From NCBI GenBank assembly GCA_028715175.1, contig JAQUSJ010000001.1, positions 340,550-404,549 on the forward strand: a stretch of 64,000 nucleotides of DNA, in the 5' to 3' direction. Origin of the DNA: Candidatus Daviesbacteria bacterium (lineage in GTDB: Bacteria; Patescibacteriota; Microgenomatia; Daviesbacterales; UBA10151). This document shows, one piece after another, positions 31,196-59,360 of this stretch (position 1 is the stretch's first letter; every line of letters starts with the position of its first letter). A model generated the notes under the pieces. The model searched no databases, was not told the origin of the DNA, and saw only the letters and a list, made by a program, of their open reading frames with translations. Made by a program: the position numbers and the translations under genes.

Positions 31196-33901
31196 ATGTC
31201 TATTATCCTAAGATTTAAGTTTCTTCTTCCTTTAATTCTTCTCCCGTTAGTTCTAGTTTTTATTTGGTTCAATAATGGTTTGATTATAGGTAGAGGAGAA
31301 GAAGGGTTGATTTTCTATAATCCTTCTAAAAATTTAGAACTTTCAAAATCAACCTGGGTTGAAATTAATACAGGTATGCCCAATTTATATTGGTTACCGA
31401 GACTACCTGTTTTGTATCTGACATCATTTTTAAATGATAAATTAGGATTGGCTCAATATCTAGTTCAAGCAGGTTTATTTTATTTGCTAATGGTAACTGG
31501 GACTATATCGATGTACTATTTGACACTATCTTTTTTAGAAGCTCACCCTTCAAGGCATTTAATATCTTTTATCTCTGCCCTATTTTATCTAATGAATCCA
31601 TTTTCAATCAGTCAAGTCTGGGGTAGGGGATTATATCCGCAATACTTTTCTTTTGTCTTATTCCCTCTATCTCTATTAATTTTGGTTAAGGCTTTAAAAC
31701 AAAAAAACTATTCTTATTTATTAATATTGATTCTTTCCTCATTAATTTTTTCTTGGTCATTTGGTTTTATCACTTCTTTTACAACTTACTGGTTAATTTT
31801 AGCGGGGTATTTCATTTGGTGGTTAGTAACTAATAAATTAAATAAAAAAGAAATTTTTTCTAGTTTGTCTCTTATGTTATTGTTTTTTTTAGGATGGTTA
31901 TTAGTTAATGCCTGGTGGTTTTTGCCTTTTATTACTGAAGGAAATGAAGTTTTTGCCGAATACTTAAATAATCAGTCAGAAAACTTAGGGACGTTATTAG
32001 GTGTAAGTAGGGCTTTTCCTCCCGATGTAATTATTAGACTCTTGCAGAAGGGATATTTCTTTGATGCTAGCGCATATAGTCAAATTTATTCAACGATTAC
32101 TTTTCAGCTGATTAGTTTTATTCCACCTTTTTTTGTTTTGATTGGTTTGATTAAAACAATTAAAAATAAAAATCCAAACCTTATGAAGTTTAGATTTTTA
32201 GCCGTATTATTAGTGGTGGGACTAGTTGTATCATTAGGTGCTAATCCTCCGTTTGGAAAATTATTCGTTTGGGTTTTTAAAAATTTTATCCCTTTGCAAG
32301 CTTTTAGGAATCCTTTTGAGAAATTTGGTCTTGTTTTTGTTTTAGGTTATTCTCCTTTTTTCGCTTATGGTTTAGTTTATATTTTTGAAAAAATAAAATT
32401 TAAATTTTTAGGATTATTTTTTATAATGTTTTTAATTTGTGGTATTTATGCCTGGCCAATGTGGACCGGACATGTTTTAACAGGAATAGACAAAAAAATA
32501 GGCGTTAATGTCCCGCAGTATTATGAAGATTTAAACGGATGGCTTAAAAATAACGATCCAGAGAATTATCGTTTGTTTACGACACCCATAAGGGGTGGTG
32601 AAGGAGCAACTTTTGGTTGGGACAGTACTACCTATAATGGGGTTGATCCCATGCATTTTATTTTGGATAGAGCTGCTGTTTCTAATGGAGCCCAGATTCC
32701 ATTTTATTACGATTTCGTTCAAGGTATTAGAAAATATATGGAAAGAGAAAACCTTACTCCCGTCCTCTCTCTTTTAAGAGCTAGGTTTTTAATTGATAGG
32801 AAAGATGCGATTCTCGTTACTGATGTAGAGAAAAAACAATATAAATTTTTAACGTCTGGCATATATCTCCCTGTAGGGGGAGAAAGCAATCTTAAAATTA
32901 TCTGCCCAAATATGGCAACAGATTTCAAAGTTAATGGTTTGGCTTGGATAGTTTGTCATATACCGTGGGAAGACAGAGATTTAAATAATATAAAATTTCT
33001 GCATGTAAAGATAAAAACTAATCCCCCAGCAGAGATAATAGTCTCTTTAAGAGATAATAAAGACGTAAGAATCGATTGGAATGGAAGAGTAGATTCAGAT
33101 TATCGGACTGACACCGATGATTGGCAATATATAACTCTTCCTCTGGGTACTCCAACTGAAAACGACAGTCATATGGATTTATCTAAGAGCGCTATACTAG
33201 AAGTATGGGCTTACTCTAAAGATAATTCGGAAAAGTCAGTCGAGCAAATTAATATTTCCGAAATAAAGTTAGATCCAGGGACGGAAACGGGAATAAATGA
33301 ATTTAAGAAAGCTGCAGAATTTGGTAAATTAACAGTTTTTGAACCAATTAATTTTAATCCTCCACCAGAGTTTGGAAATCTAACTTCAGTAAATTTTGTT
33401 AAAAGTTTCCCTCAATTTTTTGAAGAAGCTAATAAAAAAAGAGGTATTCTTGATAAAGAAGGATTTATCTTAATCTCGCAAAATAATCAGAAAAATTTGC
33501 AGGATTTAACGGATGCAGTTTTCGTAGAAGTTACTGATAAGTATAAAATTTCTGGCACCAGATATTGGGTAAAGGTTAATCAGGGTCAGGGTACAGGTTT
33601 GCTAATTTTAAGTAAGACTTTTAATCCGCAATGGAAAATTATAGCTGGTGTAAGCAAAGAAAAGCTTTCAGGTAGTTTTTTTGATGACTTGAATTTACTA
33701 AAAGCAGTTGTTCTGTCTGAAGAGAATCATTTTGTAGTAAACGGTTATGCTAATCTTTGGACTTTTGAAAATGATCAAAATCAATTAGCTATTGTTTTTC
33801 TTCCTCAAGTTTATGCAGACTTGGGATTAAAGATATCTGTAGCTTCTGTAGGCATACTTATATTAATTTGGGGAATATCTTCTATTATTAAAAAGATATA
33901 G
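31196..33901 (+). CDS. Giant polytopic membrane protein, AftD/DUF3367-like GT-C glycosyltransferase candidate with a large extracytoplasmic domain and C-terminal TM anchor
   Basis: 901 aa. The N-terminal 'GRGEEGLIFYNPSKNLELSKSTWVEINTGMP' parallels 'GGGDTGLPTYNPLFTATKIASNIWWDSLAPGIP' of the 45702/49589 proteins and the mycobacterial AftD 'DTKLDLTANPLRF...NLWNSDLPFG' block. Also shares the 'RNPFEKFG' motif and the C-terminal 'ANLW...LPQVYADLG' + TM helix. Confidence 0.5.
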   Translation: MSIILRFKFLLPLILLPLVLVFIWFNNGLIIGRGEEGLIFYNPSKNLELSKSTWVEINTGMPNLYWLPRLPVLYLTSFLNDKLGLAQYLVQAGLFYLLMVTGTISMYYLTLSFLEAHPSRHLISFISALFYLMNPFSISQVWGRGLYPQYFSFVLFPLSLLILVKALKQKNYSYLLILILSSLIFSWSFGFITSFTTYWLILAGYFIWWLVTNKLNKKEIFSSLSLMLLFFLGWLLVNAWWFLPFITEGNEVFAEYLNNQSENLGTLLGVSRAFPPDVIIRLLQKGYFFDASAYSQIYSTITFQLISFIPPFFVLIGLIKTIKNKNPNLMKFRFLAVLLVVGLVVSLGANPPFGKLFVWVFKNFIPLQAFRNPFEKFGLVFVLGYSPFFAYGLVYIFEKIKFKFLGLFFIMFLICGIYAWPMWTGHVLTGIDKKIGVNVPQYYEDLNGWLKNNDPENYRLFTTPIRGGEGATFGWDSTTYNGVDPMHFILDRAAVSNGAQIPFYYDFVQGIRKYMERENLTPVLSLLRARFLIDRKDAILVTDVEKKQYKFLTSGIYLPVGGESNLKIICPNMATDFKVNGLAWIVCHIPWEDRDLNNIKFLHVKIKTNPPAEIIVSLRDNKDVRIDWNGRVDSDYRTDTDDWQYITLPLGTPTENDSHMDLSKSAILEVWAYSKDNSEKSVEQINISEIKLDPGTETGINEFKKAAEFGKLTVFEPINFNPPPEFGNLTSVNFVKSFPQFFEEANKKRGILDKEGFILISQNNQKNLQDLTDAVFVEVTDKYKISGTRYWVKVNQGQGTGLLILSKTFNPQWKIIAGVSKEKLSGSFFDDLNLLKAVVLSEENHFVVNGYANLWTFENDQNQLAIVFLPQVYADLGLKISVASVGILILIWGISSIIKKI

Positions 33902-33938
33902 TTCATTGTATACTACAATCTAATTTAACCAAATTAAA

Positions 33939-36299
33939 ATGGAAGTTTTGATTTACTTAAAAACAATAGGTTTAATTTTAATCCTCTCCATTTGCGGATT
34001 TATAATTGTCAGAAGGATTTGTAATGACGTCCGTATCCAGATATTGCTTCCTACAGCAGTTATAACAGGGATGGCGCTTTATGTTTTTCTCCTGAACCTA
34101 GTAGCCTATATCATTAAAGGACCATCAGGATTTTATGTAGCTTTGGCGTTTGAAATCCTGTTGACGTACTTTTTAAAAGTAAAAATTAAACCTAAAGAAA
34201 TTATTTTTCCCCCAAAAAAAGAAAAAGCAGTTTGGATAATTTCTTTGTTAATCTGGTTCATTTTTTTGTTTCAAATTTGCGCAACTGGAAATGCCTCGAG
34301 TTGGGATTGGCTTTATCACTCAATACTTTCTTCTTTATTTGTCAGAGGTGATTTTCCAATACACACCCCTTTTCAACCTGATCGATTATCATCTTCTCAT
34401 GTTGGAGTACCGGAAATTTTAGGGTCATTAAGATTGTTTACAGGCGGAACTTATACTTTTTTAGGATCAACCATTTCACTAATTACTTTATTTGCAATAT
34501 CACAAATACTTCAGTGGATTCTTAAAATAAAAAACAGTATTTTTAATTTAATACTTCTTATATTTATTCCTCTGACAGCAATTGTGTCTCTGGGTAATTT
34601 TATGATTGTCTGGCCATACCAATTTAGTTTTCCTCAGATTGGCAATGGCATAATTAGTTGGCTTCATAATTTGCCAACTCTTTATAGCACTTACAATTCG
34701 TATGGAGCTCCGGTTTCATTAGATAGTTTAAATCTTTTTCTTCACCGGATGTTTGCGCTGTCAATTTTTTCAGCATTAATACCCCTTGCTTTATTCCCAA
34801 ATAAATTAAAAAGTTTTTTTTCTTCAGCCATAATTTTGATTTTACTTGCAGGATTAGCTCTTTCTGATGAGTCAGTTTTTATCGTGACAACCCCGGTTAT
34901 TATTTTAATATTATTTTTTACCTTGTTTAAAAAAAATATAAAGTTTTGGATTTTATTCTGTATGATTACTCTTGGTATAATCGTATTTCAAGGAGGACTT
35001 GTTAATGAAGTAATTTTCAAATCCAATACAACAATCGCAAAAGTATTGTTATTTCCAGACGATAATAAAGATCCTGCTGCAAGATTTGAAAAATACCGTT
35101 CCTATAGATTGGAAGCGCAATCCAGCAAGATGATTCCTGAAAAGAAAGAGTATAGTCCTTTCAGGTGGTTTCATTTTGGTGCTATATGGCAAGTAAGCGC
35201 TTTATTTATTGCATGTTTCGTATTTACTATAATTTTTAAAAACAAATTAACAGATAAATCGCCTTTGTATTTAACATGGTTGTTTTGTCTCTCGGGACTA
35301 ATTGCACTGGTTGCTTTTCATGGTATCGTACCTGAAGGTTGGACACATATAAACGGTAACCGTTTTCTATCTTTGTCTTATCAATTGTCAGGTATTGGAA
35401 TTATGATTTTTATCATTTTGGGTTGGATAAATCTTAAGGCTACAAATAGTTTTAGCAAATATTATTCTGTTGCCATAAAGATTTTCCTAGCATGGTTTGT
35501 GATAACATCCATTCTTCCAACTTTGGCTATTTTATTTCCAAGACAAAAGCAAAATTGGTTCAAAACAGTGATTGATTCTCCGAAAGCTGAACAGGTATGG
35601 ATAAAAGACAATTTAAAGGTAGATATAAGAATACTTCCTTTCATGGAAAAATTCCCTACCTCGGGATCTGTTCTGGAGGTAATTAATAATGTAGGAATAT
35701 TTACTCCTGTTTGGTACGAAGAGCCTGCAGCACAAGGTTTTGATGTCTCCCCTCCTTATTTAGATCTTTTCTTTACTCAAAATCCGGAAATTTTAAAAAT
35801 CTTAAAAGTAGATTATATTATGACAAATAAATCATATCGATCTATTCTTCCAGCCAAGCGGCTTGCCGATTTGAATAATCTAGAATATTTTAAGACCGTT
35901 TATAGTGACAAAGAAGGAGATGTGATAATTTCAAAAATTTTGCCTGATTATTTACTAAAGGCAGAAAATTATAAAGGCACATTTTACGAATTATCACAAA
36001 TTTTACCTGCAAAAGGCGCTTTTTTTATCGAACAGCCTTCTGGGATTGTAGAAGGAGTTTGGAGAGTAGCTTTTCTAACTTTGCAAATGCATAATTATCA
36101 GATGTATTATAGCTTAAAATTTATTCCTGTTTATAATTTCATTATTAATGTGCACTTGAAATTTAATGGTGAATCAAATAACAGGTATGATTATCTGGTA
36201 TTGGGACCAAAGACAGATCCGCAATCGATAGTAAAAACTCAGACTACATTAGTCTGGTCACAAATAGCAGGATATTTGAATGTATGGAAAGTAAACTAA
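33939..36299 (+). CDS. Large polytopic membrane protein of unknown function (possible GT-C-like)
   Basis: 786 aa, more than 12 predicted TM segments plus a soluble C-terminal domain. Confidence 0.4.
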   Translation: MEVLIYLKTIGLILILSICGFIIVRRICNDVRIQILLPTAVITGMALYVFLLNLVAYIIKGPSGFYVALAFEILLTYFLKVKIKPKEIIFPPKKEKAVWIISLLIWFIFLFQICATGNASSWDWLYHSILSSLFVRGDFPIHTPFQPDRLSSSHVGVPEILGSLRLFTGGTYTFLGSTISLITLFAISQILQWILKIKNSIFNLILLIFIPLTAIVSLGNFMIVWPYQFSFPQIGNGIISWLHNLPTLYSTYNSYGAPVSLDSLNLFLHRMFALSIFSALIPLALFPNKLKSFFSSAIILILLAGLALSDESVFIVTTPVIILILFFTLFKKNIKFWILFCMITLGIIVFQGGLVNEVIFKSNTTIAKVLLFPDDNKDPAARFEKYRSYRLEAQSSKMIPEKKEYSPFRWFHFGAIWQVSALFIACFVFTIIFKNKLTDKSPLYLTWLFCLSGLIALVAFHGIVPEGWTHINGNRFLSLSYQLSGIGIMIFIILGWINLKATNSFSKYYSVAIKIFLAWFVITSILPTLAILFPRQKQNWFKTVIDSPKAEQVWIKDNLKVDIRILPFMEKFPTSGSVLEVINNVGIFTPVWYEEPAAQGFDVSPPYLDLFFTQNPEILKILKVDYIMTNKSYRSILPAKRLADLNNLEYFKTVYSDKEGDVIISKILPDYLLKAENYKGTFYELSQILPAKGAFFIEQPSGIVEGVWRVAFLTLQMHNYQMYYSLKFIPVYNFIINVHLKFNGESNNRYDYLVLGPKTDPQSIVKTQTTLVWSQIAGYLNVWKVN

Positions 36300-36307
36300 A
36301 ATAGAGT

Positions 36308-37267
36308 ATGCCAAAAATATATCTTTCAATTATTGTACCTTTTTATAACGAAGTATCAAATTTGCCAGTACTGAATAAGGAATTATTGAAGGTCGTTGCG
36401 GCTATTAAGAGTAAATGTGAAATTATTTATGTGGATGATGCCTCAACTGATGGTTCTGTATATAGTTTGGTAAAGGATATTAAGAATAATGGAAACAAAA
36501 AAATCGATATTAAGCTTATATCGTTAAGAAAGAACTTTGGGCAAACAGCCGCAATTTCAGCAGGAATTGATTACGCAAATGGGGAAATAGTGGCAATTTT
36601 GGATGCAGACTTGCAAAATGATCCGACAGATCTGATAGTCATGATAGGGAAGCTGGAAATAGGATTTGACGCGGTTGTCGGATGGAGAAGAAATCGTCAA
36701 GATGGAAGCTCGCGAGTTCTTTTATCAAAGGTTGCCAACTGGCTAATCAGAATAATTTTTAAAACTCCTTTTCATGATTTGGGTTGTTCGCTGAAAGTAA
36801 TAAAAAGAAATTTTTTGAAAGATACCAGGTTTTATGGAGAATCGCATCGTTTAATATCTATCCTTTTATTCTGGAAAGGTGCAGCGGTTGAGGAAGTAAT
36901 AGTCAATCATAGGAAAAGACTTACCGGGCAATCAAAATACGGTTATTCACGGATAATAAAACTGATTCTTGATTTAGTTACATCCAAATTTTTAAGTGCT
37001 TATGGTACAAAACCAGCTTATGTTTTCGGTACATTTGGGATACTTAGTATTTTTGTAAGTATTCCCTTAATGGGGATGGTTTTGTATGATAAGTTTTACC
37101 ATGGTGTTTATGTACACAAAAATCCTCTATTTTTGATAGCCAGCTTTTTGATTTTACTGGGAATTCAGTTTTTGCTAATGGGTCTTCTGGCGGAGCTTAT
37201 TGTCAGGACTTATTTTGAAACCCAAAAGAAAACAACATATGAAATTAAAAATACAAAGGTTTACTAA
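36308..37267 (+). CDS. GT2 polyprenol-phosphate sugar synthase-like glycosyltransferase (GtrB/DPM1-like with C-terminal TM helices)
   Basis: 'LSIIVPFYNEVSNLP...YVDDASTDGS', 'LDADLQNDP', C-terminal TM pair. Confidence 0.75.
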   Translation: MPKIYLSIIVPFYNEVSNLPVLNKELLKVVAAIKSKCEIIYVDDASTDGSVYSLVKDIKNNGNKKIDIKLISLRKNFGQTAAISAGIDYANGEIVAILDADLQNDPTDLIVMIGKLEIGFDAVVGWRRNRQDGSSRVLLSKVANWLIRIIFKTPFHDLGCSLKVIKRNFLKDTRFYGESHRLISILLFWKGAAVEEVIVNHRKRLTGQSKYGYSRIIKLILDLVTSKFLSAYGTKPAYVFGTFGILSIFVSIPLMGMVLYDKFYHGVYVHKNPLFLIASFLILLGIQFLLMGLLAELIVRTYFETQKKTTYEIKNTKVY

Positions 37268-40015: not shown

Positions 40016-40125
40016 GATTTACTTACACTTTAATTAAGCAGTGGAATATTAATAGATTCATATATAAATTACAATTCTCCCCTTAGGTATAAATATTTTG
40101 TGGTAGTTATGTTAATATAATATTT

Positions 40126-40332: not shown

Positions 40333-40355
40333 TTATTAGTATCTAAAAATAGCTT

Positions 40356-40390: not shown

Positions 40391-40408
40391 ATCGGAGAAA
40401 ACAGCTTT

Positions 40409-43998: not shown

Positions 43999-44657
43999 AG
44001 ATAATTGATATTTTAAAACTTAACCTACCCTTTTCTTATATGGGTGTTTTAAGGAATTCTATTGGAAATCCAAAAACAGTATTAGATCTCGGTTGTGGAG
44101 AGGGGACATTAATGCAGTTTGTTTCCGATGGAAAAAACTGGCAGATTACAGGTATCGAGATATATAAAAAAGCCATTGATGTTGCCCGTAAACGCAATGC
44201 TTATTATAAATTAATACAAGGTGACTTATTAAAGACAATCAAAAATAATCTTAAGTCTAAATATGACGTTGTATTTTTTTCCCAAGTAATTGAACATGTG
44301 ACAAGGAGCCAAGGAGAAAAAATATTAGATGAAATTGAAAAATTGGCAAAAAAAAGAATTATTGTAGGAACTCCGAGAGGATTCATGGAGCAGCCTCATG
44401 AATTTTTAGATGGTAATCCTCATCAGGTGCATAAATCTGGTTGGAGCATTGAGGATTTTACTTCAAGAGGATATGAAGTTTATGGAATAGGATTTTGGCC
44501 AATTTGGTCTCATCATGGTTTAGGAAGAAATGCCAGTTTTTTTACAATGATTCTATCAAATGTAATTTCCTATCTAATGTCGCCAATTGTATATTTTTTC
44601 CCGGTTCTCGGGGCAGGTATCATAGCAATAAAAAATAAAGAGAAAAAAAATGACTAA
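43995..44657 (+). CDS. Class I SAM-dependent methyltransferase (paralog of the C-terminal domain of 42406..43998; hydrophobic C-terminal tail)
   Basis: 'VLDLGCGEGTLM'. 'HQVHKSGWSIEDFTSRGYEVYGIG' and the tail 'YLMSPIVYFFPVLGAGIIAIK' mirror the upstream fusion protein. Confidence 0.7.
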   Translation: MKIIDILKLNLPFSYMGVLRNSIGNPKTVLDLGCGEGTLMQFVSDGKNWQITGIEIYKKAIDVARKRNAYYKLIQGDLLKTIKNNLKSKYDVVFFSQVIEHVTRSQGEKILDEIEKLAKKRIIVGTPRGFMEQPHEFLDGNPHQVHKSGWSIEDFTSRGYEVYGIGFWPIWSHHGLGRNASFFTMILSNVISYLMSPIVYFFPVLGAGIIAIKNKEKKND

Positions 44658-48700: not shown

Positions 48701-49235
48701 TATTATACGCTTAGAGGTTGAACCTTGGGATGGCTGTACAGTTACTCAAAGTTCCAAGAAGTTATGTATGAATAAAGATTTTAGTTATCAATTTGAACGA
48801 TTAAGTCAAGTGACGTTAAGAAATATAAGAGTAGTTACATTTTTAACTAATCCGCTATTTTTACAATCAAAATTATCAGAACCAATTAATACATTTGCGG
48901 GAGAAATTAACTTTATTCAAAAAAATATTGTTTCTTATTCAGGAAAAGTAAGAATAAGCAAGTCCACATGGATGTTATTTAAGGAATCATTTGACCCCGG
49001 TTGGGAATTGTCGCTTATAAGAAATAAAGAGATTTACAAACCTAGCCAACATTTGATTGCTAATTTATTTGCTAATGTATGGCTTATTGAGCAACCGGGC
49101 GATTATGATTTTGTTTTAAAATATAGTCCTCAAAAGTTTATTAAAGTAGGTATGGTATTTGCTGGTTTAGGATTGGTTATAGTTTTAATATTTGTAGTGG
49201 GATATAATTTTCGAAGACTAATTTTCAAGAAATGA
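45702..49235 (+). CDS. Giant AftD/DUF3367-like GT-C membrane glycosyltransferase candidate (1177 aa), copy A of a duplicated pair
   Basis: N-terminal polytopic domain with 'GGGDTGLPTYNPLF...NIWWDSLAPGIP' and 'IRNPFEKLG' motifs, large C-terminal ectodomain, terminal TM helix. The first ~530 codons are nucleotide-identical to 49589..52615. Confidence 0.55.
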   Translation: MVKKLDKFPILFFLFLSGILIFCWFRFGLMYGGGDTGLPTYNPLFTATKIASNIWWDSLAPGIPVAQGLTSVPMLFLLSIPQVLGASPVVIQALLFFVLLFLMGYGMHLLALSIFGKPNYLLAISAGVFYLFNPYMMIQIWHRFIHNSMFFVAFLPFLIMTWLWWIRKRSPVCLLLFLLVNFLAVYVYGTIAFIVPVWTLLFFLTLLEGVVPWKGRKNALRLLLAFLIGCFFWLLTNSWWLIPTFSVSPALFASVHTTDGSLNTLMSLSNSSILPYTLRLVNPFYLYWLADWGSIYQNPIFLIISWLFVPVVFIGFIRGLKQTQYVVWSLLLLVVIYLSKGAAPPFNFPYIWGFSHFFPLGVIRNPFEKLGIILPLVYAILFSVGLQYLLITSIKFIGKSKTYFLLIIFICLHMAFFWPMFAGKLFGTMEKQNFVEVPPSYTEANNWIKQDLSGTAEGRILHLPLPRSESVTYNWGYGYNGVEPSAAIFTALPSIARGLDIPGVNDALSGLSLIFHKPYAENNQFVILKMLQDFNVKYIILHKDIRWLGGELYNPLETETVLDNLDFLDRETTFGDLTIYKLKDSYFSPKIKLINNIQYYISPENNTYWPLWLSSDNVELLSSLKTDTKNLLIKYGTEMIVSPEIVFKYIPQEVIREKLLVEMPVVRILPDSPLYPSVRLKENLQYSSLPAVEKFSFKVTLAGKRLIECYLLKEKGSAKSIIPQLREYQQMLPEIKEGVELRVSGKEGVKEISINFILARHLATLKLIGEKTNNQEKIVAEEVFNKLINFLKDTNVVPNSSIIEGENLPNVDRLISKFNLPFSGKYELLQAHQQIKNIYPNKLDTNRFQINNELKKSTGSLKGDFISYGLFDLPEGFNEISFNSIPSINLAKITDSFTKGNVKKANDEIELNSGLHDSSYIDINVDPVYGGNWYRLTFDSWIKLGNRFRIQILQDIDPYNPINPTEKLPLYDSDFSKDPYINHWVSQTYNFHISPTTTKVIIRLEVEPWDGCTVTQSSKKLCMNKDFSYQFERLSQVTLRNIRVVTFLTNPLFLQSKLSEPINTFAGEINFIQKNIVSYSGKVRISKSTWMLFKESFDPGWELSLIRNKEIYKPSQHLIANLFANVWLIEQPGDYDFVLKYSPQKFIKVGMVFAGLGLVIVLIFVVGYNFRRLIFKK
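45755..47335. repeat. Direct repeat copy 1 (1581 bp, apparently 100% identical to 49639..51219; offset 3884 bp)
   Basis: Side-by-side comparison of several sequence stretches (e.g. 45781-45900 vs 49665-49784; 47101-47160 vs 50985-51044). The internal shadow ORFs in the six-frame track are also identical. Identity breaks at 47336 (CCGGTGG vs TGATTGG). Confidence 0.85.
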
Positions 49236-49576
49236 GAAGTCGTATCTATTCAATATTAAAGTCAGTTCTTTTTTTTACTATCTCCTTTGTTGTATTTTAT
49301 ATTCTTGAATATGGATTTACTTTTAATCTGTGGGATAAGTTATTAAGTCCTTTTTTACTTTCAGGGCTTATGATAGTAATGTTTTTAAAACCTAGCACTA
49401 AGCGGTGTATGCTAGTTTTGGTTGGTGTTTGTTTCGTAATAATGATTTTGGCATACTTTTTTAATTTTCTAGATTTTTCTAATAGGCTTAGCAGTTTCGG
49501 ATTTAGTCTGTTGATAGTGACAATTTTTTTGTATCTTCCCCAAATTATCAAAGAAGGTTATATCAAAAAATTCTAA
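49232..49576 (+). CDS. Small 4-TM membrane protein (114 aa), possibly a GtrA-like flippase accessory
   Basis: Hydrophobicity pattern only. Sits between the duplicated giant genes with an ATGA start overlap. Confidence 0.4.
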   Translation: MRSRIYSILKSVLFFTISFVVFYILEYGFTFNLWDKLLSPFLLSGLMIVMFLKPSTKRCMLVLVGVCFVIMILAYFFNFLDFSNRLSSFGFSLLIVTIFLYLPQIIKEGYIKKF

Positions 49577-49588: not shown

Positions 49589-52500
49589 ATGAAGAAATCA
49601 ATTATTATCCCTCTGTTGTTCTTCCTGTTTTTGAGTGCAATATTAATATTTTGTTGGTTTAGGTTTGGACTGATGTATGGTGGGGGAGACACCGGTTTAC
49701 CTACATACAATCCTCTTTTTACAGCCACCAAGATTGCCAGTAATATCTGGTGGGACTCGTTGGCTCCGGGCATTCCGGTGGCTCAGGGATTAACCTCGGT
49801 TCCGATGCTTTTTCTCTTATCTATCCCCCAGGTATTGGGAGCAAGTCCTGTTGTTATCCAGGCATTGCTGTTTTTTGTGCTTCTTTTTTTGATGGGTTAT
49901 GGTATGCACCTTCTGGCTTTGAGTATTTTTGGGAAGCCTAATTATCTTTTAGCTATTTCAGCTGGAGTGTTCTATTTATTTAATCCTTATATGATGATTC
50001 AGATTTGGCACCGTTTTATTCACAATTCTATGTTTTTTGTGGCTTTTTTGCCTTTTTTGATAATGACTTGGCTATGGTGGATTAGAAAACGTAGTCCTGT
50101 ATGTCTATTATTATTCCTTCTGGTGAATTTTTTAGCTGTTTATGTATATGGAACGATTGCCTTTATAGTTCCTGTTTGGACACTGCTTTTTTTCTTAACT
50201 TTACTGGAAGGAGTGGTGCCCTGGAAAGGAAGGAAGAATGCCTTAAGGTTGCTTCTGGCTTTTTTAATTGGTTGTTTTTTTTGGCTGTTAACCAATAGTT
50301 GGTGGCTTATACCTACTTTTAGTGTAAGCCCAGCTCTATTTGCTTCAGTGCATACTACAGATGGCAGTTTAAATACTTTAATGTCGCTAAGTAATTCATC
50401 CATATTGCCTTACACCCTAAGACTTGTTAATCCTTTTTATCTTTACTGGCTTGCTGATTGGGGGAGCATCTATCAAAATCCAATTTTCCTGATCATATCT
50501 TGGTTGTTTGTACCGGTAGTATTTATTGGTTTTATCAGGGGTTTAAAACAGACACAATATGTGGTATGGAGTCTGCTTCTCTTGGTAGTAATTTATCTTT
50601 CCAAAGGAGCAGCTCCGCCCTTTAATTTTCCCTACATATGGGGATTCTCCCATTTTTTCCCCTTAGGAGTTATCAGGAATCCTTTTGAAAAGCTGGGAAT
50701 TATACTACCTCTTGTTTATGCAATTTTATTCTCCGTAGGGTTGCAATATTTGCTTATCACTTCAATCAAATTTATTGGTAAATCCAAAACCTATTTCCTT
50801 TTGATAATTTTTATTTGCCTCCATATGGCTTTTTTCTGGCCTATGTTTGCAGGGAAGTTATTTGGTACTATGGAGAAACAGAATTTTGTGGAAGTCCCCC
50901 CAAGTTATACGGAAGCCAATAATTGGATTAAACAGGACCTTTCAGGTACAGCGGAAGGTAGAATTTTACATTTACCACTCCCTAGGTCAGAAAGCGTTAC
51001 TTACAACTGGGGGTATGGCTACAACGGAGTAGAACCATCTGCCGCTATATTTACCGCACTGCCTTCCATAGCCAGGGGACTGGATATTCCCGGGGTCAAT
51101 GATGCTCTATCAGGACTTTCCCTTATATTTCATAAACCATATGCTGAAAATAATCAGTTTGTTATTTTAAAGATGCTGCAGGATTTTAATGTTAAATACA
51201 TTATTTTACATAAGGATATTGATTGGAAGAAAATGGTACTGGAGGATCCTGAGCAGGAACAAATGATTTTAGATGCTCTTTCTTATCTGGAGAAAAAAAG
51301 CATGTATGATAATTTGATTATTTATGAAGTTGTACCCGAACATTTCCAATCTAAAATTATTATTTCCGGTAATTTTGAATTAGCTTCATTAAATTCAAAT
51401 AGCACTATTTTTTGGCCCTGGATAATAGCAGATGTAAATAAAGATATGGTTACTGCTATAGATCAAAAGTCACAAACTCAGATTTTAGATAAAACCAAAG
51501 GTAAGATAATCTTTCCTACCCAAAGCTCTTTTTTCCGTCAAGAAAATCCTTTTTCAGGCATTAAGCATGTTACTCGATTTAATATCCCTGCCTCCGGTAC
51601 ATACGAGCTGGTATTAACCAATGCCTCAACCGGTGGTGCTTATCTAAATGGGTTTAATAAATTAGACGTGTTAATTGATGAGATGCAGAATTCTTTAACA
51701 GGGATTATTAAAGGTCAGTTGGTTTCATTTGGCAGCCTTAATCTTAATGCAGGTAACCATGAAATTATTTTTCTACCTCTGGAATCAATTAACTTATTCC
51801 CAAGTTTTAATTTAGTTCAAGCATCTGAAAATGTTAAATTATTAGATAATTCGACAATTCAGATTAGCGCTTCAGCAAAAAGTCTGCAATTTATCGCCGG
51901 GGAGCTTTTAAAAGTATACGGCGGGGATGCCTATAACATAAGTTTTGAATATAGATTCGCAGGGGAAAAGGGATTTTATCTTTTAATGGTACAGGATACT
52001 GACTTGGATAAAATGAATCCTGCGATTGCGGAATTGAATAAGCTCGAATCGGATAAATGGCAGCAATATAATAATATTTTCAACCCTCTTAGACTAAATA
52101 CTCAAAAATCAGCATTGGAGCTTGCCTTTAATCCGGAAACAAGCCAGCTTTTGGATACCCAGTCGACTTTGCAGATACGCAATATAAAAGTAGAGAGGCT
52201 ATTTAATAATCTGATTTTCCTAAGACAGGAAAGCACAGAGCAAAATAAAATTCTTAGTGGATTTTTGGATAATTATAAAAGAATAGATGTCGGACTTTAT
52301 GAGGGGAAATTAAAGGTAACTAAGCCGGTTTTGCTTATTTTTAAAGAAACATATCACCCGGGATGGAAACTTGAATTATCGGAAAATATCTCTCAGGGAA
52401 AGAAATTTAGAGTCGAAAACCATTATTTGGGAAACTTATATGCGAATGCCTGGTATATAGATAAATCCGGAGATTACAATTTTAAAATTATTTTTGAGCC

Positions 52501-52615
52501 TCAAAGTTATGTTAACTTAGGAATATTTACTGCAATATCTTCTTTGGTTGGAATAATTTTGTTAGAAGTTTATAACCACTTTGCCAAAACCCGTTCTCTT
52601 AGGGAGGGGATGTAG
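49589..52615 (+). CDS. Giant AftD/DUF3367-like GT-C membrane glycosyltransferase candidate (about 1008 aa), copy B of the duplicated pair
   Basis: Identical N-terminal domain to copy A through 'ILHKDI'. After that the ectodomain is only distantly similar, e.g. 'YNPLETETVLDNLDFLDRETTFGDLTIYKL' vs 'EDPEQEQMILDALSYLEKKSMYDNLIIYEV'. The C-terminal '...GDYNFKIIFEPQSYVNLG' + TM helix motif is conserved. I prefer the ATG at 49589; a TTG at 49583 is also in frame. Confidence 0.55.
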   Translation: MKKSIIIPLLFFLFLSAILIFCWFRFGLMYGGGDTGLPTYNPLFTATKIASNIWWDSLAPGIPVAQGLTSVPMLFLLSIPQVLGASPVVIQALLFFVLLFLMGYGMHLLALSIFGKPNYLLAISAGVFYLFNPYMMIQIWHRFIHNSMFFVAFLPFLIMTWLWWIRKRSPVCLLLFLLVNFLAVYVYGTIAFIVPVWTLLFFLTLLEGVVPWKGRKNALRLLLAFLIGCFFWLLTNSWWLIPTFSVSPALFASVHTTDGSLNTLMSLSNSSILPYTLRLVNPFYLYWLADWGSIYQNPIFLIISWLFVPVVFIGFIRGLKQTQYVVWSLLLLVVIYLSKGAAPPFNFPYIWGFSHFFPLGVIRNPFEKLGIILPLVYAILFSVGLQYLLITSIKFIGKSKTYFLLIIFICLHMAFFWPMFAGKLFGTMEKQNFVEVPPSYTEANNWIKQDLSGTAEGRILHLPLPRSESVTYNWGYGYNGVEPSAAIFTALPSIARGLDIPGVNDALSGLSLIFHKPYAENNQFVILKMLQDFNVKYIILHKDIDWKKMVLEDPEQEQMILDALSYLEKKSMYDNLIIYEVVPEHFQSKIIISGNFELASLNSNSTIFWPWIIADVNKDMVTAIDQKSQTQILDKTKGKIIFPTQSSFFRQENPFSGIKHVTRFNIPASGTYELVLTNASTGGAYLNGFNKLDVLIDEMQNSLTGIIKGQLVSFGSLNLNAGNHEIIFLPLESINLFPSFNLVQASENVKLLDNSTIQISASAKSLQFIAGELLKVYGGDAYNISFEYRFAGEKGFYLLMVQDTDLDKMNPAIAELNKLESDKWQQYNNIFNPLRLNTQKSALELAFNPETSQLLDTQSTLQIRNIKVERLFNNLIFLRQESTEQNKILSGFLDNYKRIDVGLYEGKLKVTKPVLLIFKETYHPGWKLELSENISQGKKFRVENHYLGNLYANAWYIDKSGDYNFKIIFEPQSYVNLGIFTAISSLVGIILLEVYNHFAKTRSLREGM
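49639..51219. repeat. Direct repeat copy 2 (1581 bp, identical to 45755..47335)
   Basis: See copy 1. Confidence 0.85.
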
Positions 52616-52689
52616 ACGAAGACAGGTTACCATTTGTGTTAAGGTGATGTGAAAAACCGCTTTTTGCTATACTTAATATAGCTGTAGTT

Positions 52690-54333: not shown

Positions 54334-54476
54334 TTTTAAGCTTGGAATTGACCCTTGTGTGTAATAATTAGTACACTGAAGCTATAAATATTATCAAAAG
54401 TTATAAGTTATTAATAATAGTCCTATTTGTTGCTGCTATATTACGACTTTGGAATTTAGGAGGTATACCTCCCCAT

Positions 54477-56446: not shown

Positions 56447-56497
56447 ACCCTACAACATATACTAAACTGTATATCAAAATGTAATATAATCTCTTAG

Positions 56498-56671
56498 ATG
56501 AAACTTTTAAGCAAGCACATTTTTTTAATAGGATTATTTTTTGTTTTATTAAGCGGTCTATTCATTCTTTTAAATCACTCGGGATTTGCATTAAGATTTT
56601 TAGGTTTTTCATTTTGGATTATGGCAGGAGGGACGTTACTCTATATACTAGAGTTAAAAAATGAAAGGTAA
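56498..56671 (+). CDS. Unlisted small ORF (57 aa, 2 predicted TM helices)
   Basis: Reads ATG at 56498 ... TAA at 56669-71 and overlaps the start of the next gene by 11 nt. TATAAT-like box at 56485-90. Below the ORF-track length cutoff. Confidence 0.25.
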   Translation: MKLLSKHIFLIGLFFVLLSGLFILLNHSGFALRFLGFSFWIMAGGTLLYILELKNER

Positions 56672-59360
56672 ATTTGTAGTAATAGTTTTATTACTTCTAT
56701 TATTTGTGGTTTACTGGCAATGGTTTTTACCGGGGTTAAAAGTTGCAAATGATTTTCCAATAGTTTCCGAATCTTTACTTAAATCTTCTATAAATTTTCC
56801 TTATGCCTGGTCAGAAAATGGTGCCGAAGGGTTAGGGGAGTATTCAACATTTTTTCTTTGGTCCTGGCCACTGTCATTTTTATGGGGTATTCTCGCAAAT
56901 ACTGGTTTAAGTTTCATAATCCTGGAAAGAGTTCTTTTTTTAATGCCATTTTTGCTTATAGGGTGTGTTGGAATTTGGAAATTTTGCGGAAGTATTAAAT
57001 TAACTAATGCTGCTAAATTTATTTCATCCTTTTTTTATTTAACAACTACTTATATTCTCTTAGTTATTGATGGCGGACAATTATCCATAGCGCTTGCTTA
57101 TGCCTGGTTTCCTGTAGCCTTCTTAGCAGTGGAAAAATCTATTAAGGGGGGGTTTAATAAGAAAGTTCTGGCGGGTTTGGCAATCTCAATTTTAGGATTT
57201 TTGGATTTTAGATTTATTTACGTTTTATTTTTACTAAGTTCAGCACTATTTTTTTATCAATTATTTTTAGATTTTAAAAAAAAATACTCATGGTATTTAG
57301 ATTGGATAAGTAGCGGAGTAATTATTGCCATAATAATAACGGGATTGAATATTTATTGGTTATTGCCTTTATTTAAAGCTCCAATCTCCTCCAATACTTA
57401 TGCTTTTTTTACTCAAACTTCTTTCTTAAGCTTTATAAATTTAGGTCATAGCATATTACTTCTTGCGCCTCACTGGTTTAAAAATATTTTTGGAAATATC
57501 ACAACTTTACGTCCTGAATTTATCTTTATCCCGATACTGGTATTCCTAGCACCCATTCTGCGACCTAAAAATCCGGTTGTTGGATTCTGGTTATTAATTG
57601 CTGTGTTTTCCATCTTTTTAACTAAAGGCGCTGAAGGTCCTCTACCAGGAATCTACCCTTGGCTTTTTTCACATATACCAGGTTTTTCATTATTCCGCGA
57701 TTCAACAAAGTTTTTCTTTTTAGGAGCGCTTTCGTATAGTATCTTACTAGGAATAACTACAGATGAGATTCTTAAAAAGACAATTAAATTCCCAAAATTT
57801 AAAATATTTTTTTTAATATTACTATCTAGCTATCTTATATTTCTGATAAGGCCGATTTGGCTTGGACAAACGACCGGTACATTTTCTCATCCTCTATTTC
57901 AACAGGAGTTTACAGGACTTAGTCGATTTATAGAAAGCGATAAAAGTTTCAGTCGGGTATTTTGGATTCCGTTTTTCCCCTCTTTAGGTTATTCAAGTCA
58001 AACTCATCCTAGGGTAGAAGCTGCCCGTTTGGTTCAGAAGAGATCTTTTGCTATTGGTACAAGCGGTACTTATGAAACATTTAATTTTTTAAGGGAAGCA
58101 CCATACATGGGAGAGATTTTTGATGTTGCAGGAATAGGCTATGTTTCTTATCCTTATCTTGATCCGAGGAGAGATAATGTGTACCCGGATAATATAAAAT
58201 ATTACTATACTTTTCTAGACCAGCTTTTAAAAAAATCATGGTTTTCAAAGGTTGAAAATTCAAAAGTTCCACTTCTTAAGACAAAAGAGCACCAGGATAG
58301 ATTTTTTGTTACATCAAACATCTGGTGGGTGATAGGGTCTGATAATCTCTACAACGAATCAACAAAAAGTGCCAAATTAAAACTTTCTAATAATGCTTTA
58401 ATCTTTGCTGAAGAATATCCCGGAATGGGTATAAAGCTTAACGATTTTCCTGAAGCTAAAATTGTACTAAATAGCAAGACAGATTTAGATTTAGCGGCGA
58501 GCTTCATAAAGCCTCTAAATTATATTTTTCCTGCTAAGAATTTAGATTTTGCTCCCAATAAATCCGGTTGGTGGAAAAGGGAGACAGTAGATTTAATTTC
58601 GTGGAGAAGTTTTTTGCAGGAGGAATATGGAATTGATAATCAGGATTTTGATTTAGGAGGCGGATGGGCGATAGGAGAGGGAGACAGGCAATTGACAATT
58701 GACAATTTACAATTTAAAAAAGAAAAAATACTTTTAGCTAGAGTGATGGAAAGCGCAAGAAGCGGAAAGTTGAGTTTTTATCAAAGAAATCAAAAGGTAG
58801 GAGAAGTTTCAACAAAGATTAATGGAGATGCTAATGTCAGATGGTTTGAGGTAGGTCAGTTGATACAAGATGGGGGAGAACTAGGAATAACTTCTTCTGG
58901 AGATATTAATGTAGTTAATGCATTAGCGGTTTTGGACAAAGCTGAATGGGTAAGCTATCAGGATAAAGCTGAAAAGTTGCAGGAGAGGATAGTAAATTTT
59001 GATGAAAAGAATGCGGAAGGTAATAGCGATCCCACTATTGCCTACCAGAAAATAAACCCCACAAAATACAAAGTTATTGTAAGCCATTTAACCAAGCCGT
59101 CACTGATGATATTTTCCCAAAATTATGACGGACTTTGGAAAATTAACGGAAGTCAGACTCCCCTGCCGGTGTATAGTTTGTTGAATGGATTTAGGATAGA
59201 AGGGGATGGAGAGTATATTGTGGAATTTGAAGTACAGAAATATGTTTATTTGGGCTTAATTATCACTGGAGTCACGTTAACGATCTTACTTATATTTTTG
59301 TTAAGATTGCCACGCCGTTTGCAGACTGAAGATCCTGTAAGGGCTCGTTCCTCGCAATGA
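56661..59360 (+). CDS. Giant polytopic membrane protein with large ectodomain and C-terminal TM anchor, distant member of the AftD-like family
   Basis: 899 aa. N-terminal 'FPYAWSENGAEGLGE' loop, 'FRDSTKFF' (cf. RNPFEKLG), C-terminal 'GDGEYIVEFEVQKYVYLGLIITGVTL' matching the family C-terminal motif. Confidence 0.45.
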   Translation: MKGKFVVIVLLLLLFVVYWQWFLPGLKVANDFPIVSESLLKSSINFPYAWSENGAEGLGEYSTFFLWSWPLSFLWGILANTGLSFIILERVLFLMPFLLIGCVGIWKFCGSIKLTNAAKFISSFFYLTTTYILLVIDGGQLSIALAYAWFPVAFLAVEKSIKGGFNKKVLAGLAISILGFLDFRFIYVLFLLSSALFFYQLFLDFKKKYSWYLDWISSGVIIAIIITGLNIYWLLPLFKAPISSNTYAFFTQTSFLSFINLGHSILLLAPHWFKNIFGNITTLRPEFIFIPILVFLAPILRPKNPVVGFWLLIAVFSIFLTKGAEGPLPGIYPWLFSHIPGFSLFRDSTKFFFLGALSYSILLGITTDEILKKTIKFPKFKIFFLILLSSYLIFLIRPIWLGQTTGTFSHPLFQQEFTGLSRFIESDKSFSRVFWIPFFPSLGYSSQTHPRVEAARLVQKRSFAIGTSGTYETFNFLREAPYMGEIFDVAGIGYVSYPYLDPRRDNVYPDNIKYYYTFLDQLLKKSWFSKVENSKVPLLKTKEHQDRFFVTSNIWWVIGSDNLYNESTKSAKLKLSNNALIFAEEYPGMGIKLNDFPEAKIVLNSKTDLDLAASFIKPLNYIFPAKNLDFAPNKSGWWKRETVDLISWRSFLQEEYGIDNQDFDLGGGWAIGEGDRQLTIDNLQFKKEKILLARVMESARSGKLSFYQRNQKVGEVSTKINGDANVRWFEVGQLIQDGGELGITSSGDINVVNALAVLDKAEWVSYQDKAEKLQERIVNFDEKNAEGNSDPTIAYQKINPTKYKVIVSHLTKPSLMIFSQNYDGLWKINGSQTPLPVYSLLNGFRIEGDGEYIVEFEVQKYVYLGLIITGVTLTILLIFLLRLPRRLQTEDPVRARSSQ

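What the first reader, a model, noticed from the sequence alone, without database searches (positions are those of the whole stretch)
31196..59360. Four-member family of AftD/DUF3367-like giant membrane proteins with a shared C-terminal 'GDYxFxxxFxPQxYxxxG + TM helix' signature
Proteins 31196..33901, 45702..49235, 49589..52615 and 56661..59360 share three features. First, an N-terminal loop motif (G-x-G-D/E-x-G-L...YNP...W...G-x-P) that matches what I recall of the mycobacterial arabinofuranosyltransferase AftD 'DTKLDLTANPLRF...NLWNSDLPFG' block. Second, an 'RNPFEK(F/L)G' motif. Third, a conserved C-terminal block followed by a single terminal TM helix. AftD-type enzymes are best known from Corynebacterineae cell-wall arabinan synthesis. 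Four paralogs in a low-GC small-genome organism suggest an analogous but undescribed furanose or other polymer-branching activity.
Basis: partly seen in the sequence, partly recalled or inferred. Interest (0 to 1): 0.6.

Follow-up and report, generated by a model that had tools for sequence, protein, structure and literature searches.

The report
AftD-like membrane glycosyltransferases in Daviesbacteria
Four large membrane proteins in a sugar-chain gene island of a tiny-genome Daviesbacteria bacterium are distant relatives of the mycobacterial cell-wall enzyme AftD; they most likely attach lipid-carried sugars to surface polymers, which makes them uncharacterised but not a new kind of enzyme.

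Summary
The four ORFs exist as described and are the only family members in the window. Reciprocal profile searches give E-values of 1e-15 to 1e-150. The literal motifs hold for A, B and C; D (56661-59360) carries divergent versions. None of the four hits Pfam GT-C_AftD directly. The link to AftD is nevertheless solid:
- Intermediate homologs pass the Pfam threshold (60-62 bits).
- AftD is the best PDB hit for a family profile.
- A profile-to-sequence hhalign comparison with a mycobacterial AftD gives 95.5% probability.
- High-confidence AlphaFold models of A and D both find AftD first (E 1e-13 and 4e-11).

Equivalents of AftD K361 (RNPFEK) and D474/E475 (G-x-D/E-P) are near-invariant, as is an acidic residue in the first outer loop. 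All lie outside the membrane.

The neighbourhood encodes ArnC/PgfS-like polyprenyl-phosphate sugar synthases and Wzx-like flippases. [quoted passage not shown] Donor sugar and acceptor are unknown, and nothing supports arabinofuranose.

The C-terminal block plus TM helix probably also exists in AftD, before TM12.

Two extras: B and C share a perfect 1581-nt stretch, best read as gene conversion of the catalytic module. A conserved 114-aa four-TM ORF follows B.

The family is large (over 8,500 clusters at 50% identity). Verdict: new members of a known kind.

The parts
31196..33901 (+). Paralog A, 901 aa. It has an 11-TM GT-C module (res 1-424), a periplasmic alpha/beta domain, two beta-sandwiches, and a terminal TM helix (res 869-895).
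   Evidence: ORF. AlphaFold pLDDT 92.3, pTM 0.90. Foldseek top hits are AftD 6wby/6w98/6wbx at E 1e-13 to 1e-11, and the ectodomain resembles CBM11/CBM30. Topology.
31298..31303 (+). Codons for E35-E36 of A, in the first outer loop just after TM1. This is the candidate catalytic acid.
   Evidence: Position 35 is E or D in 67 of 67 family members. It lies 6-7 residues before the 'NP' that aligns with AftD N45-P46.
32306..32323 (+). Codons for R371-N-P-F-E-K376 of A, in outer loop EL5.
   Evidence: R371, N372 and K376 are each conserved in 66 of 67 members. hhalign pairs RNPFEK with AftD 'RNVHK', where K361 is essential.
32639..32650 (+). Codons for G482-V-D484-P485 of A, in the periplasmic domain.
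   Evidence: G482 is invariant in 67 of 67, and position 484 is D or E in 63 of 67. It aligns with AftD H473-D474-E475-P.
33527..33880 (+).
   Evidence: Secondary structure. A-family versus D-family block: hhalign 99.5%, E 2e-22. Versus the AftD block before TM12: E 2.4e-4, 43%.
45702..49235 (+). Paralog B, 1177 aa. Same GT-C module and a long ectodomain that includes DUF5667 (res 668-767).
   Evidence: Its start overlaps the stop of the upstream GT2 gene by 7 nt.
45755..47335 (+). Copy 1 of a perfect 1581-nt repeat. It encodes B residues 18-545: the GT-C module plus the start of the periplasmic domain.
   Evidence: 100% identity, with sharp boundaries inside the coding sequences.
49639..51219 (+). 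Copy 2 of the perfect 1581-nt repeat, encoding C residues 17-544.
   Evidence: Tandem pairs in relatives show 98.7% (L038) and 80.3% (L044) N-terminal identity, against ~33% C-terminal identity.
49232..49576 (+). Unannotated 114-aa ORF with four predicted TM helices. Its start overlaps the stop of B (ATGA).
   Evidence: It is conserved directly downstream of B-like genes in 14 related loci (tblastn E 2e-27 to 7e-5). No Pfam hit.
49589..52615 (+). Paralog C, 1008 aa. Its GT-C module is identical to that of B; its ectodomain differs.
56661..59360 (+). Paralog D, 899 aa. It is a divergent member with the same architecture.
   Evidence: hhalign. AlphaFold pLDDT 85.3. Foldseek top hit AftD 6w98_A at E 3.7e-11, with a CBM6-like ectodomain. 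Invariant D31, D137, D347, K350 and E472.
36308..37267 (+). GT2 enzyme of the ArnC/PgfS/GtrB type, with two C-terminal TM helices. It is the likely polyprenyl-phosphate sugar synthase (donor supply) and sits in the run of genes A, 786-aa protein, GT2, AsnB.
   Evidence: Pfam GT2 hit. Full-length NCBIfam matches to ArnC (E 2e-46) and PgfS (E 2e-35). TM helices at res 236-254 and 271-289.
25841..26794 (-). A second ArnC/PgfS-type GT2 with two C-terminal TM helices.
   Evidence: PgfS E 2e-67 and ArnC E 2e-38, both full length. TM helices.
44650..45708 (+). Soluble GT2 glycosyltransferase whose stop overlaps the start of B.
   Evidence: no TM helices predicted.
59392..60651 (+). Wzx-like polysaccharide flippase immediately downstream of D.
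   Evidence: Pfam Polysacc_synt at 3e-23.
33939..36299 (+). 786-aa polytopic membrane protein of unknown family. It is a conserved neighbour of A.
   Evidence: No Pfam or NCBIfam hit. 13 hydrophobic segments. Found next to or near A-type genes in L025, L011 and L054.

Best explanation
A, B, C and D are extracytoplasmic GT-C-fold glycosyltransferases of the AftD clade. The proposed mechanism has four steps:
1. Membrane-anchored GT2 enzymes of the ArnC/PgfS/GtrB type load a sugar from a nucleotide sugar onto polyprenyl phosphate at the inner face of the membrane.
2. A flippase moves the lipid-linked sugar to the outer face. Candidates are the Wzx-like proteins, or possibly the small four-TM protein that follows B.
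3. The 11-TM module of each paralog binds the lipid-phosphate sugar. An active site built from outer loops (the EL1 acid at position 35, the EL5 R-N-x-x-x-K motif, and the periplasmic G-x-D/E-P) transfers the sugar.
4. The acceptor is a polymer held by the paralog-specific beta-sandwich (CBM-like) ectodomain. A conserved last beta-sandwich and one TM helix tie the ectodomain back to the membrane.

The four paralogs would decorate different acceptors or different positions. B and C share one catalytic module and so presumably the same donor chemistry, with different ectodomains.

Shown here: homology, fold, residue conservation, topology and gene context. Inferred: catalysis, the lipid-linked donor, the flippase assignment and a glycan acceptor. 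The sugar and the acceptor are unknown.
For: Homology to AftD:
- Homologs pass Pfam GT-C_AftD.
- AftD is the top PDB hit of the family profile, in three colinear stretches.
- hhalign against a mycobacterial AftD gives 95.5%, E 1.4e-8 over 635 columns.

Fold:
- Models with pLDDT 92 and 85.
- AftD is the first Foldseek hit for both A and D. STT3, PglB, AglB, AftA and DPY19 follow.

Active site:
- AftD K39, D41, E251, K361 and D474 are essential (bioRxiv 10.1101/2019.12.22.885152).
- Equivalents of K361 and of D474/E475 are near-invariant, and position 35 is acidic in 67 of 67 members.
- D31, K350 and E472 are invariant in the D family.

Topology:
- Every short cytoplasmic loop is K/R-rich and all conserved motifs lie outside.

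Context:
- Two full-length ArnC/PgfS-like GT2 enzymes with C-terminal TM pairs.
- Two Wzx-like proteins.
- The whole window is a glycan-biosynthesis island.

Ectodomains resemble CBM11, CBM30 and CBM6.
Against: - None of the four proteins reaches any Pfam or NCBIfam glycosyltransferase model directly.
- The EL1 acid aligns one to two residues away from AftD D41, falling between D37 and D41.
- The equivalent of E251 is ambiguous in A, B and C and apparently absent in D.
- The structural comparison has TM-scores of only about 0.5 at 10% identity.
- No residue-level superposition could be made.
- No GtrA-family flippase was recognised.
- No biochemical data exist for any member of this subfamily.
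Confidence: 0.8

Rival explanations
1. They act as oligosaccharyltransferase-like enzymes on proteins such as S-layer proteins or pilins, rather than decorating a polysaccharide or lipoglycan.
For: After AftD, the next best structural matches are STT3, PglB and AglB. One neighbouring GT2 resembles PgfS, which belongs to a protein-glycosylation system, and another resembles AglJ. Two PMT_2-type GT-C genes lie between C and D.
Against: AftD ranks five to seven orders of magnitude better than the oligosaccharyltransferases. The only WWD in the four sequences is 'NIWWDS' in the first outer loop of B and C, not in the periplasmic domain where, from my own knowledge, oligosaccharyltransferases carry WWDYG. 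The ectodomains look like carbohydrate-binding modules.
Confidence: 0.12
2. They are true arabinofuranosyltransferases that use decaprenyl-phospho-arabinose, as mycobacterial AftD does.
For: AftD is the closest characterised relative by sequence profile and by fold.
Against: Identity to AftD is about 10%. The window's 64-kb glycan island has no UbiA-type phosphoribosyltransferase, DprE1-like FAD oxidase or Glf. The donor-supplying GT2 enzymes are of the ArnC/PgfS type. The ACP-binding TM13-16 bundle of AftD is absent.
Confidence: 0.04
3. They are catalytically inactive membrane-anchored carbohydrate-binding or scaffold proteins derived from GT-C enzymes.
For: There is no direct match to any curated glycosyltransferase model. 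D has a weak partial NCBIfam match (E 1e-6) to MmpA, which is described as a lipid delivery protein rather than an enzyme. The E251 equivalent is uncertain.
Against: Acidic and basic residues at AftD active-site positions are near-invariant across 67 and 46 diverse homologs. The genes are tightly linked to lipid-sugar synthases.
Confidence: 0.05
4. The identical B and C N-termini are an assembly artefact, a collapsed or chimeric repeat in a metagenome-assembled genome, rather than real biology.
For: A perfect 1581-nt identity in a metagenome-assembled contig is unusual. I could not inspect any reads.
Against: Independent assemblies of related genomes show the same pattern without perfect identity: 98.7% in L038 and a mosaic 80.3% in L044. 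In both, the ectodomains are about 33% identical and the breakpoints fall near the same domain boundary. More distant relatives have the same tandem gene pair with 31-50% N-terminal identity.
Confidence: 0.1

Closest known systems
AftD, alpha-(1->3)-arabinofuranosyltransferase of Mycobacteriales (Pfam PF11847 GT-C_AftD; PDB 6W98, 6WBX, 6WBY)
   Same: - Overall plan: an N-terminal 11-TM GT-C module, a periplasmic alpha/beta domain, beta-sandwich (CBM-like) domains, then re-entry into the membrane.
- It is the best hit by profile and by fold.
- Shared motifs: an EL1 acid followed by 'NP' and W, R-N-x-x-(x)-K in EL5, W...G/H-x-[DE]-P in the periplasmic domain, and a 'F/I-N-P-G/Q-W ... V-N-G-[WY] ... 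W' block before the re-entrant TM helix.
   Different: - About 10% identity.
- 900-1180 aa against about 1400 aa.
- One C-terminal TM helix instead of TM12 plus the ACP-binding TM13-16 bundle.
- No PF24607 CBM_AftD hit.
- The EL1 acid is offset from D41, and the E251 equivalent is unclear.
- A different phylum (Patescibacteria) with no sign of arabinan synthesis.
- The four window proteins fall below the Pfam threshold.
Multi-component transmembrane glycosylation systems of Gram-positive bacteria (CsbB/GtcA/YfhO, GtrB-type GT2 plus PMT_2-type GT-C; review PMC8035078)
   Same: The working logic matches: a membrane-linked GT2 makes a polyprenyl-phosphate sugar, a GtrA- or Wzx-type flippase moves it, and a polytopic GT-C enzyme transfers it to a wall polymer outside the cell. 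Genes for these parts are often adjacent. NCBI names a 72%-identical homolog of A 'YfhO family protein'.
   Different: None of the four window proteins matches Pfam YfhO at E<=10, and none of nine homologs matches it at E<=1; the four also have no PMT_2 match. No GtrA-family protein was recognised. Donor, acceptor and partners have not been tested.
Oligosaccharyltransferases STT3, PglB and AglB (GT-C)
   Same: The same GT-C fold class. They are the second-best structural matches, at E 1e-6 to 1e-4.
   Different: No WWDYG-type motif in the periplasmic domain (the motif itself is from my own knowledge). The ectodomains are CBM-like. AftD matches far better.

Membership tests
Pfam PF11847 GT-C_AftD (formerly DUF3367) | Whole-protein score at or above the Pfam gathering threshold (26 bits). 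| tested here: not met
   A, B, C and D give no PF11847 hit even at E<=10. Homologs linked to A at E 1e-103 and 6e-67 do pass (P0097 60.9 bits, P0111 62.2 bits, P0096 42.8, P0119 38.3). Membership is therefore transitive, at superfamily level.
AftD-type GT-C enzymes | An 11-TM GT-C fold followed by a periplasmic alpha/beta domain, with AftD as the nearest structure. | tested here: met
   AlphaFold models have pLDDT 92.3 and 85.3. Foldseek top three hits are AftD entries for both: E 1.3e-13 and 3.7e-11, TM-score about 0.5 normalised to the query.
AftD-type GT-C enzymes | Conservation of residues shown to be essential in AftD (K39, D41, E251, K361, D474). | tested here: inconclusive
   - K361 corresponds to K376 (66 of 67) and to K350 in D (46 of 46).
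- D474/E475 correspond to D/E484 (63 of 67) and to E472 in D (46 of 46).
- An EL1 acid is always present (position 35; D31 in D) but aligns between AftD D37 and D41.
- K39 has no basic counterpart.
- The E251 equivalent (E262?) is ambiguous because of an 8-residue indel.
Sources.
AftD-type GT-C enzymes | The conserved loops face the extracytoplasmic side. | tested here: met
   The positive-inside pattern on the model helices is consistent throughout. The N-terminus, CL2-CL5 and the C-terminus are K/R-rich. EL1, EL2, EL4, EL5 and the ectodomain lie outside. No dedicated topology predictor was available.
AftD-type GT-C enzymes | A C-terminal membrane domain of TM12 plus the four-helix bundle TM13-16 that binds acyl carrier protein. 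| tested here: not met
   Only one terminal helix is predicted: A residues 869-900 and D residues 859-882. The AftD architecture is described.
AftD-type GT-C enzymes | Carbohydrate-binding modules in the periplasmic region (Pfam PF24607 CBM_AftD). | tested here: inconclusive
   No PF24607 hit. The model ectodomains do match CBM11, CBM30 and CBM6 folds at E about 3e-3 to 8e-3.
AftD-type GT-C enzymes | Arabinofuranosyl transfer from decaprenyl-phospho-arabinose. | not testable with these tools
   Only indirect evidence is available. The window contains no UbiA-, DprE1- or Glf-like genes. The rest of the genome was not examined.
YfhO family (Pfam PF09586) | A significant match to the YfhO model. 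| tested here: not met
   No YfhO hit for the four proteins at E<=10, nor for nine homologs at E<=1. The only link is NCBI's name for homolog P0009.
Multi-component transmembrane glycosylation system | A membrane-linked GT2 polyprenyl-phosphate sugar synthase, a flippase and a GT-C enzyme encoded together. | tested here: met
   ArnC/PgfS-like GT2 enzymes with two C-terminal TM helices lie at 36308-37267 and 25841-26794. Wzx-like genes lie at 818-2092 and 59392-60651. The GT-C genes are A-D. Which parts work together is inferred from proximity only.
Oligosaccharyltransferases (STT3/PglB/AglB) | A WWDYG-type motif in the periplasmic domain (the motif is from my own knowledge). | tested here: not met
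   By inspection of the translations, the only 'WWD' is in the first outer loop of B and C.

The most novel reading that the evidence does not exclude
The tandem B/C-type genes could form a modular diversification system. Gene conversion would keep one catalytic GT-C module identical or nearly identical between neighbours. Fast-evolving ectodomains (about 30% identity even between close relatives) would retarget the same sugar transfer to different surface acceptors. A dedicated, previously unrecognised four-TM partner (49232-49576) would serve as their flippase or coupling subunit. In episymbiotic small-genome bacteria this could be a way to vary the surface glycan coat under pressure from hosts or phages.
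Probability: 0.15. Interest if true: 0.55.

Novelty: new member of a known kind. Interest (0 to 1): 0.33.

Why it matters
Candidate Phyla Radiation bacteria such as Daviesbacteria have tiny genomes. This one still devotes at least 64 kb to surface-glycan genes, including four AftD-like enzymes.

The result places a large uncharacterised protein family among the relatives of a structurally and genetically characterised enzyme. The family has more than 8,500 clusters at 50% identity with E<=1e-10. In a motif-restricted genome scan it was seen only in Patescibacteria-type genomes.

The work names the residues to mutate. It proposes the donor-supplying GT2 partners. It also shows that many members escape the current Pfam model, so extending that model would improve annotation of thousands of 'hypothetical proteins'.

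It does not reveal a new mechanism.

Tried and rejected
- Direct Pfam and NCBIfam scans of the four proteins gave nothing relevant.
- A PDB sequence search with the four-sequence profile and with the 67-sequence A-family profile found no AftD hit. Only the profile enriched in short AftD-like homologs found it.
- phmmer of P0111 alone against PDB found nothing.
- Searching the large protein database with an AftD fragment returned only N-terminal fragments of 300 aa or less. hhalign with those fragments was weak (5% probability).
- I therefore rebuilt a near-full-length AftD from a frameshifted mycobacterial contig, L001. Its numbering is approximate: spacings between landmark residues differ by 2-6 from the published ones.
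- Pfam scans of the isolated C-terminal blocks, the ectodomains and the small ORF gave no significant hits. CBM_4_9 and PA14 scored E about 0.04 in C.
- A literature search for Patescibacteria together with GT-C found nothing.
- I considered whether the six other large membrane proteins in the window belong to the family. They do not.
Full report
**Source and layout.** The window has 31-35% GC. Protein A is 100% identical to a hypothetical protein (PHE48_02020) of a Candidatus Daviesbacteria metagenome-assembled genome, on a 743,708-bp contig. Protein D is PHE48_02100 on the same contig.

**Is it one family?** Yes.
- HMMs built from database homologs of A and of D pick out exactly these four ORFs among all window ORFs of 300 aa or more.
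- The A-family HMM hits C at 5e-150, B at 2e-141 and D at 2e-25.
- The D-family HMM hits B, C and A at 4e-19 to 9e-15. The next best ORF is at E 0.016 or worse.
- A profile-profile comparison of the two families gives 100% probability, E 2.7e-40, over the N-terminal membrane domain.
- Compared separately, the last ~100 residues give 99.5% probability, E 2e-22.

**Relationship to AftD.** None of the four proteins hits PF11847 or any other glycosyltransferase model in Pfam or NCBIfam, even at E<=10. Five independent lines still connect them to AftD.
1. Database homologs of A carry PF11847. Rescanning confirms whole-protein scores above the 26-bit threshold, covering profile positions 10-543 of 661. 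P0111 scores 62.2 bits and P0097 60.9 bits; they are related to A at E 6e-67 and 3e-103.
2. A profile of A, B, C and the shorter homologs finds AftD (6w98_A, 6wbx_A) as its best PDB hit. The E-value is 0.0011, in three colinear stretches.
3. I reconstructed a mycobacterial AftD from a frameshifted contig. Local hhalign of the family profile against it gives 95.5% probability, E 1.4e-8, over 635 columns.
4. The AlphaFold model of A (pLDDT 92.3, pTM 0.90) and the model of D (pLDDT 85.3, pTM 0.82) both have the three AftD entries as top Foldseek hits. E-values are 1.3e-13 to 1.4e-11 for A and 3.7e-11 to 5.4e-10 for D. STT3, PglB, AglB, AftA, DPY19 and EmbB follow by five or more orders of magnitude.

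**Active-site residues.** The AftD paper reports that K39, D41, E251, K361 and D474 are essential, and that E251, D474 and E475 are the likeliest catalytic residues. The hhalign alignment gives these correspondences:
- 'FRNPFEK' pairs with AftD 'LRNV-HK', so K376 corresponds to K361.
- 'W475...G482-x-D484-P' pairs with 'W469...H473-D474-E475-P'.
- 'N42-P43' and W54 pair with N45-P46 and W57.

Conservation across homologs:

| Position | A-family (67 sequences) | D-family (46 sequences) |
|---|---|---|
| EL1 acid | position 35 is E or D in 67 | D31 in 46 |
| EL5 arginine | R371 in 66 | R346 in 45 |
| EL5 asparagine / aspartate | N372 in 66 | D347 in 46 |
| EL5 lysine | K376 in 66 | K350 in 46 |
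| Periplasmic acid | position 484 is D or E in 63 | E472 in 46 |

Two weaknesses remain. The EL1 acid aligns between AftD D37 and D41 rather than on D41. The E251 region contains an 8-residue indel, so E262 is only a candidate, and D seems to lack it.

**Topology.** I used the model helices of A and the positive-inside rule. The N-terminus, all short cytoplasmic loops and the C-terminal tail carry the K/R clusters. EL1, EL2 (invariant N134 and R144), EL4, EL5 and the 444-residue ectodomain lie outside.

**Architecture.**
- The 11-TM GT-C module.
- A periplasmic alpha/beta domain. It ends at '...VKYIILHKDI', which aligns with AftD '...ISYVVVRNDLD'.
- A variable middle part. In A it is one CBM11/30-like sandwich. 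In D it is CBM6-like. In B it is about 500 residues including DUF5667.
- A conserved last beta-sandwich.
- One TM helix.

AftD has the same plan but with three CBMs, and TM12 is followed by an ACP-binding four-helix bundle. That bundle is absent here.

AftD has 'ESINPGW...VNGWQQGW...GTVTLNFPSNALYRAGL' immediately before TM12. This aligns colinearly, though weakly (E 2.4e-4, 43% probability with a single sequence), to 'FNPQW...VNGYANLW...AIVFLPQVYADLG'.

**Context and mechanism.** The whole 64-kb window is a glycan-biosynthesis island. It contains:
- at least eleven GT2 genes and three GT4 genes;
- about ten SAM methyltransferases;
- NAD-dependent epimerases and reductases, a UDP-GlcNAc 2-epimerase, a DegT aminotransferase, a carbamoyltransferase and AsnB;
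- two Wzx-like flippases;
- two PMT_2-type GT-C proteins.

Two GT2 proteins (36308-37267 and 25841-26794) match ArnC and PgfS over their full length and carry the two C-terminal TM helices typical of polyprenyl-phosphate sugar synthases. The first lies in the tight run of genes A, 786-aa membrane protein, GT2, AsnB. A soluble GT2 overlaps the start of B by 7 nt, and a Wzx-like gene follows D.

[quoted passage not shown] I therefore propose that A-D transfer single sugars from polyprenyl-phosphate donors to extracytoplasmic polymers selected by their ectodomains.

There is no UbiA-, DprE1- or Glf-type gene in the window. Arabinofuranose, or furanose in general, has no support.

**Distribution.**
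- The A-family profile finds 11,888 cluster representatives at E<=1e-3, 8,536 at E<=1e-10 and 3,253 at E<=1e-30, among 1.84 billion representatives. Lengths run from 650 to 1200 aa. Matches usually run end to end, so the variation sits in the middle.
- A motif-based scan of one genome per species found 61 loci. All those carrying a lineage name are Daviesbacteria, Woesebacteria, Amesbacteria, Microgenomates, Saccharibacteria or Patescibacteria genomes. Many titles read 'uncultured Gammaproteobacteria', probably placeholder labels, because several of those contigs carry the same syntenic genes.
- The order B-like, B/C-like, D-like, and the pairing of A with the 786-aa protein, recur in many of these genomes. 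The four-paralog set is therefore ancestral to the clade, not an expansion in this genome.

**B/C duplication.**
- B and C share 1581 nt of perfect identity: 45755-47335 = 49639-51219. This covers B residues 18-545. It starts after the divergent first 17 codons and ends right at the end of the periplasmic alpha/beta domain.
- In most relatives the tandem pair is 31-50% identical in this region.
- In the two closest lineages it is 98.7% (L038) and 80.3% with 100%-identical sub-tracts (L044). The ectodomains stay at about 33%.
- Independent assemblies thus show the same pattern without perfect identity. Gene conversion of the catalytic module is the best reading, and an assembly artefact is unlikely though not excluded.

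**Small ORF.** A 114-aa ORF with four hydrophobic helices (49232-49576) starts on the stop codon of B (ATGA). It is conserved directly after B-like genes in 14 related loci. It has no Pfam match. It may be a partner of the B-type enzymes.

**Verdict.** What is there is a set of distant, uncharacterised members of a known enzyme class working in a known type of pathway. The catalytic-residue mapping, the donor-synthase candidates, the conversion tract and the small partner ORF are useful leads. None of them changes the category.

Noticed in passing
window 45755-47335 and 49639-51219: A perfect 1581-nt direct repeat lies inside the coding sequences of B and C. It covers the whole GT-C module and ends at a domain boundary. 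Tandem pairs in the closest relatives are 98.7% and 80.3% identical in the same region, while their ectodomains are about 33% identical. This suggests gene conversion.
   Followed up: yes
window 49232-49576 (+): An unannotated 114-aa ORF has four predicted TM helices, and its ATG overlaps the stop codon of B. It is conserved right after B-like genes in 14 related loci. It has no Pfam family. It may be a partner or flippase.
   Followed up: partly
window 2855-4885, 10513-12411, 13588-15333 (-), 15336-17144 (-), 27699-29231, 33939-36299: Six further large proteins of 510-786 aa have no Pfam hit and are not members of the AftD-like family. The two I checked for hydrophobic segments (27699-29231 and 33939-36299) are polytopic membrane proteins. 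The 786-aa and 510-aa proteins have homologs near A-type genes in related genomes.
   Followed up: partly
window 1-64000: The entire window is one glycan-biosynthesis island. It holds many GT2 and GT4 genes, about ten SAM methyltransferases, sugar-nucleotide modifying enzymes, a carbamoyltransferase, AsnB, two Wzx-like flippases and two PMT_2-type GT-C genes (52690-54333 and 54477-55955). This is a large investment for a genome whose main contig is about 0.74 Mb.
   Followed up: partly
window 47703-48002 (B residues 668-767) and 7007-7510: DUF5667 (PF18915) occurs inside the ectodomain of B (E 1e-6) and again in a separate 167-aa ORF (E 3e-6). B-like homologs elsewhere carry it too.
   Followed up: no
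window 57537-57779 (D residues 293-373): D has a weak partial NCBIfam match (E 1e-6, 27.6 bits against a 210-bit cutoff) to the 'MmpA family trehalose lipid delivery protein'. The match covers the EL5 region that holds the R-D-x-x-K motif. This may mean MmpA shares this GT-C loop.
   Followed up: no
window 24586-25834: Transketolase-like sequence is split into at least three consecutive pieces: an uncalled N-terminal fragment at about 24600-24920, then ORFs 24922-25323 and 25325-25834. It is either a split sugar-modifying transketolase or a decayed gene.
   Followed up: no
loci L005, L007, L014, L015, L017, L019, L020, L022 and others (genome contigs): Many records titled 'uncultured Gammaproteobacteria bacterium' carry Daviesbacteria- or Microgenomates-type syntenic genes. 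For example, L022 is the same 192,519-bp contig that holds P0080 and P0145. The organism labels look like placeholders or errors.
   Followed up: partly
L001 (ENA contig_26173, 6001-11179): The mycobacterial aftD gene in this metagenomic contig is broken by many frameshifts into four called ORFs. This explains why the large protein database returned only short AftD fragments.
   Followed up: yes
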